Of a DNA stretch of 8,214 nt, positions 1 through 3,000 are shown one piece after another. Location of the stretch: assembly GCF_003334765.1 (NCBI RefSeq), contig NZ_QOWT01000060.1; one strand, 5' to 3'. A program made the position numbers. The stretch comes from Escherichia coli (lineage in GTDB: Bacteria > Pseudomonadota > Gammaproteobacteria > Enterobacterales > Enterobacteriaceae). How positions within the stretch are numbered: the first letter of the stretch is position 1; each line of letters begins with the position of its first letter.

Positions 1-3000
1 AAATCGGCTCAAACATGAAGAAATGAAATGACTGAGTCAGCCGAGAAGTATTTCCCCGCTTATTCGCACCTTCCTTAGTACTATTTTTGGTGATAAATAT
101 ATCCTTACTTTGCTAAATTCTATGCGAAATATGGAGGGTAATAAAGATAGCCGTATTAATAAAAATGTCGTCGTTCTGGCTGGAAATCATGAAATCAATT
201 TTAATGGTAACTATACTGCACGACTAGCAAATCATAAACTCTCTGCCGGTGATACGTATAACTTAATTAAAACGCTCGATGTTTGTAATTATGACTCAGA
301 AAGGCAAGTTTTAACCAGTCATCACGGAATAATAAGAGATGAAGAAAAAAAATGTTATTGTCTCGGTGCTTTGCAGGTTCCATTTAATCAGATGAAAAAT
401 CCTACTGATCCTGAGGAATTAGCCAATATTTTTAATAAAAAACATAAAGAACACATGGATGATCCTCTATTCCATCTAATCCGAAGCAATACTTTGAAAC
501 CCACACCTGTATATGCTAATTATTTTGATAACACTACTGATTTCAGACCAGCACGTGAACGTATCTTCATATGTGGGGAGACACTCAAAGGTGAAGACCC
601 CAGCAAATACATTAGACAAAAATATGGGCATCATGGGCCCGGGGTAGATCATAATCAACAATTTGATAATGGTATTATGGGGCTAAATTCCCTGAAGGAA
701 GCACGTGATAAAAATAATAAAATAATTTATTCCTCAGGGCTTAGTTGTTTTCAACCACATTAAAACTCCATGAATACGGTGGTATGTCTTTTTAATCCTG
801 CCAGTATTTCATAGGTTTTCTTAATCGATTGTAGAGGCATGTTCTGATGACGCCTCTACAATCTTTAGGGACTTTCTCTGCTATGAGATAAGAAATTTCA
901 TATTATGCTTTGAGGCTGAATGATTTGTGCAAAATATAATTATTTTCCCATCGAACATGAGGTGTATGTCATAAGATAAAATGTTAACTATGTATTCCTC
1001 GCGGTAAATAATATGAGGTAAAATATGAAAATTGGAACTGTGGCAGGCACTAACGACAGTACAACGACAATCGCAACAAATGATATGGTGCAAGAGCATG
1101 TTACCAACTTCACTAAAGAACTGTTTGGGTATATTGCAAATGGTATAGGTGATGATATATCAAGTATTGCCAGGACAATGCTCGGTGAGGTTGTGGAAAA
1201 AATAGATGATTGGCAAATAGAACGGTTCCAACAATCTATTCAAGATGACAAAATTTCATTTACCATACAAACGGATCATTCAGAAAAATATAGTATGCTA
1301 TCGGGCATGCGTGCTCATATTCTACGTAGGAATAATAATTATCAGTTTATTGTGACAATTAATAGCAAAAATTACGGTTGCTCTCTTGATAATACCGATG
1401 TTAATTGGTGCAGTATTGTTTATTTACTTAATAATATGACAGTAAATGATAATGCTAATGATGTTGCAGTTACTGAGTCGTACAAACCCATCTGGAACTG
1501 GAAAATATCGCAATATAATGTATCTGATATTAAATTCGAAACAATGATAAAACCCCAGTTCGCTGACAGAATCTATTTCTCCAATTGTTTACCCGTTGAT
1601 CCCACAAGTACCAGACCAACCTATTTTGGTGATACCGATGGCTCAGTCGGTGCAGTTTTGTTCGCGCTTTTCGCAACGGGACATTTGGGAATCATGGCTG
1701 AAGGAGAAAATTTCCTTAGCCAGTTGCTTAATATAGAAGATGAAGTTCTCAACGTATTGCTAAGGGAGAACTTTAATGAGCAACTTAACACTAATGTTAA
1801 TACAATAATCAGTATCCTGAACAGAAGAGACATTATTTTAGAAAGTCTTCAGCCTTATTTAGTTATTAATAAAGACGCTGTGACGCCATGTACGTTTCTG
1901 GGCGACCAAACCGGCGATCGATTTAGCAATATCTGTGGTGATCAATTTATCATCGATTTGTTAAAACGCATAATGAGTATCAATGAAAATGTTCATGTAT
2001 TAGCTGGAAATCATGAAACGAATTGCAATGGTAACTATATGCAGAACTTCACGCGTATGAAACCACTCGATGAGGATACCTACTCTGGGATAAAAGATTA
2101 TCCTGTATGTTTCTATGACCCCAAATACAAAATAATGGCAAATCATCATGGGATAACTTTTGATGATCAGCGAAAACGTTACATTATAGGACCGATAACA
2201 GTCTCTATTGATGAAATGACCAATGCTCTCGATCCGGTCGAATTAGCGGCAATTATCAATAAAAAGCATCATGCTATAATTAATGGCAAAAAGTTTAAAA
2301 CTAGCCGGGCTATCTCTTGTCGATCCTTTAATCGTTATTTTTCTGTTTCGACAGATTACAGACCTAAACTTGAAGCACTATTAGCATGTTCACAAATGTT
2401 AGGTATAAATCAAGTTGTTGCACATAACGGAAATGGTGGAAGAGAACGCATAGGCGAAACGGGGACAGTTTTAGGTCTTAACGCCCGTGACAGTAAACAT
2501 GCTGGAAGAATGTTCAGCATGCATAATTGCCAAATTAACCCTGGTGCAGGGCCTGAGATAACCACTCCCTGGAAGTCTTACCAGCATGAAAAAAACAGAA
2601 ATGGACTTATGCCTTTGATTAGAAGGCGCACAATGTTACAGCTCTGAACCATAGACAACATGAATATTAATGTTACTATCTGGTTGAGACTGTTGATAAA
2701 ACGTAAAAAGGAATGCTCTGTTCCTGCAACTGAACAGGCGTGAAACGCTATCCAACAGGATGGATACCGTTTTGTCAGCCAGTTTTATAGATCACACTTA
2801 TGAGTATGCGTGTTTCATTTACGGCCAGGAATGCTGATGATGACAACATTACTACCCGTTTTCACTAAGCCTTCCCCGTTGGCGCTCAATGCTCTGCGCG
2901 CTGGTCGTATTTGCCGTTTCCTTCTTATCCCGGATGGAAGAATCCGCTGAACGTCGTTCGGCGGCAGTTGTAACACGCGTCGTTTGCTTACAGGGATTAT

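What the first reader, a model, noticed from the sequence alone, without database searches (positions are those of the whole stretch)
827..863. Perfect 12-bp palindromic hairpin between the two DUF4049 paralogs
The exact inverted repeat GATTGTAGAGGC...GCCTCTACAATC sits about 65 bp after the remnant's stop and about 160 bp before the yhiJ start. It lacks a strong U-tract, so it may be a protein operator, an RNA stability element or a leftover of the duplication/recombination junction, and not a simple terminator.
Basis: seen in the sequence. Interest (0 to 1): 0.25.

Follow-up and report, generated by a model that had tools for sequence, protein, structure and literature searches.

The report
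Stem-loop after yhiL in E. coli
The perfect 12-bp hairpin is real and found once per genome in most E. coli, and is most likely an ordinary RNA stem-loop at the end of the yhiL message (a weak stop signal or 3'-end protector), not a new kind of element.

Summary
GATTGTAGAGGC (827-838) and GCCTCTACAATC (852-863) are perfectly complementary around a 13-nt loop. The hairpin lies 63 nt after the yhiL stop codon and 161 nt before the yhiJ start.

It occurs once per genome, always at this locus, in 4171 of 5426 complete E. coli genomes. It has no copies in phages, true plasmids, viral contigs or Rfam.

As RNA it folds at about -18 to -20 kcal/mol (z about -5 to -6). It is followed by only UUU, has a 13-nt loop, and fails a terminator scan.

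Natural variants lean towards an RNA role on the gene strand. Three of four stem substitutions are C-to-U and keep G.U pairs on that strand, while all four break the DNA symmetry (P = 0.05, suggestive only). There are no compensatory double changes. E. albertii has a different, weaker hairpin at the same place.

Published K-12 data place the peak of a Rho-dependent termination region inside the left arm. No Term-seq 3' end is reported there.

Best reading (about 0.5): a yhiL 3'-UTR stem-loop acting as a leaky terminator, pause site or exonuclease stop, upstream of yhiJ's own promoter. Rivals are a neutral palindrome, a protein operator, or a recombination remnant. Interest is low.

The parts
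1..763 (+). 3' part of yhiL (DUF4049 paralog; frameshifted pseudogene in K-12 and in the strain identical to the window); stop codon at 761-763
   Evidence: ORF list and RefSeq annotation of the matching loci
827..838 (+). Left arm of the hairpin, GATTGTAGAGGC
   Evidence: The only variants seen are C838T (common; gives U.G) and a singleton G831T
839..851 (+). 13-nt loop ATGTTCTGATGAC; in the fold GUU pairs with GAC, leaving a 5-nt apical loop
   Evidence: Folds. This is the most variable part: sites 841, 843, 849 and 851 vary
852..863 (+). Right arm of the hairpin, GCCTCTACAATC
   Evidence: Variants C854T and C856T both give G.U on the + strand
818..871 (+). Possible extended helix: UUCUUAA (818-824) pairing with UUAGGGA (865-871) around the 12-bp stem
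   Evidence: Predicted in the minimum-free-energy folds. Not supported by variation, since T865C in the N96/L014 alleles breaks a pair
864..866 (+). Short U run (UUU, then AGGGAC) directly after the stem; a weak U-tract
   Evidence: Sequence. Terminator scan negative. Score -3.7 against a threshold of 0
888..906 (+). Strongly conserved block ATAAGAAATTTCATATTAT, shared by E. coli, E. albertii and the L017 lineage
   Evidence: Alignment. Function not tested
909..939 (+). Candidate yhiJ promoter TTGAGG-19 nt-TATAAT, downstream of the hairpin
   Evidence: My reading of the sequence. A constitutive sigma-70 promoter with an H-NS site is reported in the yhiL/yhiJ spacer by genomic SELEX (PMC3946193), but that paper writes TTGACG-19-TATAAT, so the assignment is inferred
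1025..2647 (+). yhiJ (540 aa, DUF4049)

Best explanation
The palindrome acts at the RNA level, on the strand that carries the genes. It is a stable stem-loop in the 3' untranslated region of yhiL, placed between the yhiL stop codon and yhiJ's own promoter. With only three U's after it, it is at best a leaky intrinsic terminator. More likely it works together with Rho. Transcription leaving yhiL is attenuated in this spacer in a Rho-dependent way, and the hairpin serves as a pause or weak-release site and/or as the barrier where 3'-to-5' exonucleases stop, which would define and stabilise the yhiL 3' end. Shown: the structure, its position, its single-copy conservation, the strand-biased variants and the published Rho-sensitive region. 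Inferred: that transcripts actually end at or are protected by this hairpin.
For: The 12-bp stem is perfect, with RNA folding energy of -18.3 to -19.7 kcal/mol and z -5 to -6, and no shuffle folds as well. It sits 63 nt after the yhiL stop and upstream of the candidate yhiJ promoter. The three U's follow the stem only on the + strand, giving scores of -3.7 (+) against -28.6 (-). It is present once per genome in 4171 of 5426 complete E. coli genomes, always at this locus. Among 8 distinct haplotypes, 100% of cells pair on the + strand, with two pairs changed to G.U. Among 81 E. coli-type metagenome contigs the stem substitutions are C838T, C854T and C856T (all keep G.U on the + strand) plus one singleton that breaks a pair. 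One disruptive change was seen against 3.9 expected, P = 0.053, whereas all four would be disruptive on the - strand. The loop varies more than the stem. E. albertii has a different stem-loop at the same position that folds only on the + strand, -16.5 against -9.0 kcal/mol. Adams et al. 2021 (PMC7815308, Supplementary file 2) list a Rho termination region whose best position is NC_000913.3 3632784 on the minus strand. That is window position 831, inside the left arm, with Rho score 2.77 and P 5e-6.
Against: None of the three conditions of the same study reports a Term-seq 3' end in 36327xx-36328xx, and two other 3'-end data sets also have nothing there. The locus is H-NS bound and poorly expressed, so this absence is weak evidence. 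The U-tract (3 of 8) and the loop (13 nt) fall outside the usual terminator range, and the scan is negative. No compensatory double substitutions were seen. The stem is not significantly more conserved than the surrounding spacer: 2 of 24 variable sites against 39 of 237 (my count). The variant test is only borderline (P 0.05). The palindrome itself is not conserved in E. albertii, and that species' own hairpin is not significant against shuffles (z -1.6). The Rho-score position comes from 800-nt windows with low read counts, so its coincidence with the hairpin may be accidental.
Confidence: 0.5

Rival explanations
1. The palindrome has no present function. It arose by chance or by a mutational process, such as template switching that perfects an imperfect inverted repeat. 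It persists only because E. coli alleles are too young to have eroded it.
For: Stem variability (2 of 24 sites) does not differ significantly from the rest of the spacer (39 of 237). There are no compensatory changes. E. albertii carries only a degenerate version: the flanks CTTAATCGAT and TTAGG align, but the arms do not match. The locus is dispensable, being absent from 23% of complete E. coli genomes. It is deleted in L017 and L018 without obvious replacement. No 3' end is mapped there. By my estimate a few chance 12-bp perfect repeats are expected per genome.
Against: Only 1.3% of shuffled windows contain such a repeat. The high-frequency stem variants all keep + strand pairing, and the only disruptive one is a singleton. 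The loop and the 3' flank carry more distinct substitutions than the stem. The position fits a 3'-UTR hairpin exactly and coincides with a Rho-sensitive region.
Confidence: 0.27
2. The palindrome is a DNA operator. A dimeric or tetrameric regulator binds the two 12-bp half-sites, about 85-120 bp upstream of the yhiJ transcription start, to control yhiJ. yhiJ is reported as a late, atypical SOS-induced gene.
For: The half-sites are perfectly symmetric. The spacer between the arms is free to vary while the arms are conserved, which also fits an operator. The site lies upstream of the candidate promoter. yhiJ and yhiL are listed among SOS genes with delayed induction, which the authors take to suggest extra regulation (PMC11002266).
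Against: Common alleles (C838T in 9 of 23 sampled loci; also C856T and C854T) break the DNA symmetry yet keep RNA pairing. The centre-to-centre distance of the arms is 25 bp, about 2.4 helical turns, so the half-sites face different sides of the helix. The window holds no LexA box within 3 mismatches of the consensus. The genomic SELEX papers read here report only RNA polymerase and H-NS for this spacer. No second copy exists in any E. coli genome, so there is no regulon.
Confidence: 0.1
3. The hairpin is an RNA processing site, for example for RNase III, in a yhiL-yhiJ read-through transcript. Cleavage would uncouple the stability of the two halves.
For: The predicted extended helix 818-871 has about 19 bp plus 3 more in the loop region, near the length that RNase III needs. 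That length requirement is established knowledge, not tested here. Read-through exists when Rho is inhibited.
Against: The outer 7-bp extension is not supported by variation (T865C breaks it). No 5' or 3' processed ends are reported at the site.
Confidence: 0.07
4. The palindrome is a remnant of a mobile element or of the recombination or duplication junction that created the two paralogs.
For: It lies between tandem paralogs. In the L017 lineage a deletion end-point falls inside the right arm, and paralog recombination has produced a yhiL'-'yhiJ chimera in L018.
Against: The regions after yhiL and after yhiJ share no homology, so the hairpin is not part of a duplicated unit. It has a single copy per genome and none in phages, true plasmids or viral contigs. 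No flanking direct repeats or terminal-repeat structure were found beyond chance matches. YhiJ and YhiL are only about 35% identical, so the duplication is ancient, while the palindrome is confined to E. coli.
Confidence: 0.04

Closest known systems
Intrinsic (Rho-independent) transcription terminators of E. coli
   Same: A stable stem-loop on the sense strand shortly after a stop codon, followed by U's and located before the next gene's promoter.
   Different: Only 3 U's (UUUAGGGA), a 13-nt loop and a stem with just 5 G-C pairs in 12. The consensus scan is negative and the score marginal. The region is Rho-sensitive and no 3' end is mapped.
Protective 3' stem-loops of Rho-terminated transcripts (3' ends trimmed back to a hairpin; Dar and Sorek 2018, as cited in PMC7815308)
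   Same: A stable hairpin without a proper U-tract, downstream of a gene and inside a bicyclomycin-sensitive termination region.
   Different: The defining observation, a stable RNA 3' end at the base of the stem, has not been seen here.
REP/BIME and other dispersed extragenic palindromes of E. coli
   Same: An extragenic palindrome in a 3' UTR. A REP fragment lies at 8010-8027 after yhhJ, just downstream of a perfect 10-bp palindrome at 7947-7979.
   Different: A single copy per genome, no similarity to the REP consensus, and AT-richer.
RNase III processing hairpins between cistrons
   Same: A long, nearly continuous predicted helix between two co-oriented genes.
   Different: No processing ends are known, and the helix extension is not conserved.

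Membership tests
Intrinsic terminator | G+C-rich stem of about 5-14 bp on the transcribed strand downstream of a gene | tested here: met
   12 perfect pairs (5 G-C), -18.3 kcal/mol, 63 nt after the yhiL stop
Intrinsic terminator | Short loop (3-8 nt) | tested here: not met
   13 nt between the arms; a 5-nt apical loop only if three extra weak pairs form
Intrinsic terminator | U-tract (at least 5 U in the 8 nt after the stem) | tested here: not met
   UUUAGGGA has 3 of 8. Scan finds 0 sites in 600-1200. d'Aubenton-Carafa-type score -3.7 against a threshold of 0, with the formula recalled from memory
Intrinsic terminator | RNA 3' ends map in the U-tract, independent of Rho | tested here: not met
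   No Term-seq 3' end in 36327xx-36328xx in PMC7815308, and the region has Rho score 2.77. Low expression makes the absence weak evidence
Protective stem-loop at the end of a Rho-terminated transcript | Lies in a bicyclomycin-sensitive (Rho-dependent) termination region | tested here: met
   The best position of the Rho region, 3632784 (-), is window 831
Protective stem-loop at the end of a Rho-terminated transcript | A stable processed 3' end at the 3' base of the stem | tested here: inconclusive
   Not listed in the three 3'-end data sets searched. The locus is H-NS bound, so coverage may be too low
REP/BIME or other dispersed repeat, MITE | Many copies per genome | tested here: not met
   4174 places in 4171 genomes, all chromosomal and at this locus. 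No phage or viral hit, and the only 'plasmid' hits are 4.8-4.9-Mb records
Curated RNA family (Rfam 15) | Match at or above the gathering score | tested here: not met
   Best hits are 14-20 bits against gathering scores of 50-123, E > 1, all from unrelated eukaryotic or Gram-positive families
Palindromic operator of a dimeric regulator | Both half-sites conserved symmetrically | tested here: not met
   Four distinct substitutions, three of them recurrent alleles, each change one arm only
Palindromic operator of a dimeric regulator | A protein binds the site | not testable with these tools
   The papers read report only RNA polymerase sigma-70 and H-NS for this spacer. No footprint data were found
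LexA (SOS) box | CTG-N10-CAG motif close to the consensus TACTGTATATATATACAGTA | tested here: not met
   No match within 3 mismatches in the window, and no CTG-N10-CAG in the spacer

The most novel reading that the evidence does not exclude
The palindrome is an E. coli-specific regulatory switch between the two paralogs. One version is an operator for an unidentified regulator that gives yhiJ its late, LexA-atypical SOS induction. The other is a hairpin-dependent pause that hands RNA polymerase to Rho, so that read-through from yhiL into yhiJ is conditional.
Probability: 0.08. Interest if true: 0.35.

Novelty: new member of a known kind. Interest (0 to 1): 0.12.

Why it matters
It matters little beyond annotation. 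If the hairpin marks the 3' end of yhiL transcripts, then yhiL and yhiJ are separate transcription units. It would also add one example of a stem-loop with a poor U-tract working inside a Rho-dependent termination zone in an H-NS-silenced, horizontally acquired locus. Neither gene has a known function, so the element gives no handle on a larger open question.

Tried and rejected
1. Rfam scan of 500-1300 at a permissive threshold gave only chance-level hits.
2. A search for other copies found none in the window, in 5426 E. coli genomes, in phages or in viral contigs. The plasmid search returned three hits, all in 4.8-4.9-Mb records, which are chromosomes filed as plasmids.
3. The protein-pattern scan of GTDB species representatives with YhiJ found nothing. 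The second genome scan, with the conserved 19-mer, returned 72 chance hits in unrelated AT-rich genomes and no Escherichia. Inter-species comparison was therefore limited to E. albertii contigs reached through the protein database.
4. I tested whether the hairpin belongs to a duplicated unit by aligning the sequence after yhiL with the sequence after yhiJ. There is no homology.
5. The outer stems of the 101-nt fold (805-814 with 881-890) are not supported, because A883T in the N96 allele breaks a pair.
6. A LexA box was sought because yhiJ and yhiL are listed as SOS genes. None was found.
7. Supplementary tables were searched for RNA ends near NC_000913.3 3632750-3632790. Term-seq gave only the Rho-region entry. 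TRS, SRPS and Cappable-seq gave nothing. Two further papers had no supplements held.

Full report
**Observation.** The window is the E. coli yhiL-yhiJ-yhiY-yhiI-rbbA-yhhJ region, with all genes on the + strand of the window. The inverted repeat is exactly as described. GATTGTAGAGGC at 827-838 and GCCTCTACAATC at 852-863 are 100% complementary, with 13 nt between them. It starts 63 nt after the yhiL stop codon (761-763) and ends 161 nt before the yhiJ ATG (1025). Both neighbours are DUF4049 (YhiJ/YhiL family) genes. yhiL is a frameshifted pseudogene in K-12 and in the strain whose sequence is identical to the window. Only 4 of 300 dinucleotide-preserving shuffles of the window contain any perfect inverted repeat of at least 12 bp with a 3-20 nt loop. 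By my arithmetic a whole genome would still hold a few by chance, so more than statistics is needed.

**What it is not.**
- It is not a dispersed repeat. A sensitive blastn of 815-875 finds 4174 places in 4171 of 5426 complete E. coli genomes, all chromosomal and at this locus.
- It has no match in phages or viral contigs. The only 'plasmid' matches are 4.8-4.9-Mb records, evidently chromosomes.
- No Rfam family matches.
- It is not part of a duplicated unit, because the sequences after yhiL and after yhiJ do not align.
- There is no LexA box, although yhiJ and yhiL are listed among SOS genes.

**Structure and terminator features.** As RNA the 37-nt element folds at -18.3 kcal/mol on the + strand. 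With short flanks the value is -19.7 to -24, with z -5 to -6, and no shuffle folds as well. The - strand folds equally well, as any perfect palindrome must. What differs between the strands is the tail: UUUAGGGAC on the + strand against GAUUAAGAA on the - strand. A d'Aubenton-Carafa-type score (formula recalled from memory) gives -3.7 on + and -28.6 on -, against a threshold of 0. The consensus terminator scan finds nothing. It is therefore at best a marginal intrinsic terminator, on the gene strand only.

**Position relative to promoters.** Genomic SELEX data report a constitutive sigma-70 promoter and H-NS binding in the yhiL/yhiJ spacer (PMC3946193). The best candidate I can read in the sequence is TTGAGG-19-TATAAT at 909-939, downstream of the hairpin. 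The hairpin would then lie in the yhiL 3' UTR and upstream of the yhiJ promoter, which is the classical place for a transcript-end element. This assignment is inferred. I found no mapped transcription start.

**Variation within E. coli: sampled loci.** I aligned 23 loci taken from complete genomes and protein-anchored contigs, including alleles whose YhiJ is only 86% identical.
- 2 of 24 stem positions vary, against 39 of 237 in the rest of the spacer. That difference is not significant (my count).
- 4 of 13 loop positions vary.
- On 8 distinct haplotypes every cell of the 12 pairs forms a standard pair on the + strand. Ten pairs are invariant, two change on one side to G.U, and none changes on both sides.

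**Variation within E. coli: metagenome scan.** A scan anchored on the conserved flanks, with the hairpin left free, returned 82 contigs in 15 haplotypes.
- The stem substitutions are C838T, C854T and C856T, plus one singleton, G831T.
- The first three keep G.U pairing on the + strand and the singleton breaks a pair.
- On the - strand, or viewed as a DNA palindrome, all four are disruptive.
- I redistributed the 14 observed substitutions over sites with the same base. This gives 3.9 expected disruptive hits against 1 observed, P = 0.053.
- This is suggestive of selection for RNA pairing on the gene strand, but it is not proof.

**Other lineages.**
- E. albertii has the same gene order and homologous flanks (CTTAATCGAT ... 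TTAGG, and an almost identical ATAAGAAAnTTCATATTAT block), but its arms do not form the palindrome.
- E. albertii does have a different stem-loop at the same place. It folds at -16.5 kcal/mol on the + strand and only -9.0 on the - strand, but it is not significant against shuffles (z -1.6).
- In one divergent lineage (L017) the 3' half of yhiL and the hairpin are deleted, with the junction inside the right arm.
- In another (L018) recombination between the paralogs made a chimeric gene and removed the spacer.
- The locus is absent from 23% of complete E. coli genomes. It was not found in any GTDB species representative.
- The element is therefore dispensable and confined to E. coli.

**Experimental data from the literature.** Window position x corresponds to NC_000913.3 coordinate 3633615 - x on the minus strand. 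Adams et al. 2021 (PMC7815308) list a Rho termination region whose best-scoring position is 3632784 (-), which is window 831 in the left arm.
- Read counts upstream and downstream are 73 and 36 untreated, and 182 and 249 with bicyclomycin.
- The Rho score is 2.77 and P is 5e-6.
- The score uses 800-nt windows, so the exact coincidence may be fortuitous. It does show that transcription across this spacer is attenuated in a Rho-dependent way in K-12, where yhiL is untranslated beyond its frameshift.
- The same study reports no Term-seq 3' end here, and two other end-mapping data sets also have nothing.

**Interpretation.** The best-supported reading (about 0.5) is an RNA stem-loop of the yhiL 3' UTR. 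It would act as a leaky terminator or pause site and/or as an exonuclease barrier within a Rho-dependent termination zone, separating yhiL from the independently promoted yhiJ. The main rival (about 0.27) is that the palindrome is neutral. The others rank lower:
- A DNA operator (about 0.1) is disfavoured by the common symmetry-breaking alleles and by the 25-bp, off-phase spacing of the arms.
- An RNase III-type processing site (about 0.07) cannot be excluded.
- A recombination or mobile-element remnant (about 0.04) has almost no support.

**Verdict.** The feature is real and was correctly described. It is most likely an ordinary, unannotated 3'-UTR hairpin: a new member of a known kind and of low general interest. 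Simple 3'-end mapping and arm-swap mutants would settle its function.

Noticed in passing
window 888-906: The 19-nt block ATAAGAAATTTCATATTAT, which contains the palindrome GAAATTTC, is almost identical in E. coli, E. albertii and the divergent L017 lineage although the flanks diverge. It lies just upstream of the candidate yhiJ promoter and is a better candidate for a conserved regulatory site than the hairpin.
   Followed up: partly
window 2743-2778: A second hairpin, AAACGCTATCCA/TGGATACCGTTT followed by TTTTGT, lies about 96 nt after the yhiJ stop and looks like a more canonical terminator. It falls inside the small-RNA candidate AC3630 (NC_000913 3,630,783-3,630,921, which is window 2694-2832) listed in a supplement of PMC12306157.
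   Followed up: partly
window 700-735: The last ~20 codons of yhiL exist as at least three very different alleles among E. coli strains, while the spacer downstream is much more uniform.
   Followed up: no
L017 2790-2880 (corresponds to window ~861): A lineage labelled E. coli (GCA_910664965.1) has lost the 3' half of yhiL together with the hairpin. The deletion junction (CTGTGCT|ATCC) falls in the right arm, at a short similarity between yhiL (CTGTACT) and the arm (CTCTACA).
   Followed up: partly
L018 3001-4668: A 555-aa yhiL'-'yhiJ chimeric gene, produced by recombination between the paralogs, removes the whole spacer and the hairpin.
   Followed up: partly
L028 2690-3400 (insertion at about window 923): In strain PSS-15 an IS1A element is inserted between the hairpin and yhiJ, inside the candidate yhiJ promoter.
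   Followed up: no
window 7947-7979 and 8010-8027: A perfect 10-bp inverted repeat with a 13-nt loop (CCGATGCGTA...TACGCATCGG) lies right after the yhhJ stop. It is followed by a REP-like fragment GCCGGATAAGGCGTTTA.
   Followed up: no
whole locus: The yhiL-yhiJ spacer is missing from 1255 of 5426 complete E. coli genomes. Neither YhiJ nor the conserved 19-mer was found in any GTDB species-representative genome. DUF4049 proteins appear confined to E. coli, Shigella and E. albertii.
   Followed up: partly
window 1-2647 (yhiL, yhiJ): yhiJ and yhiL are tabulated as SOS genes with late, weak induction (PMC11002266), yet the window holds no LexA box within 3 mismatches of the consensus.
   Followed up: partly
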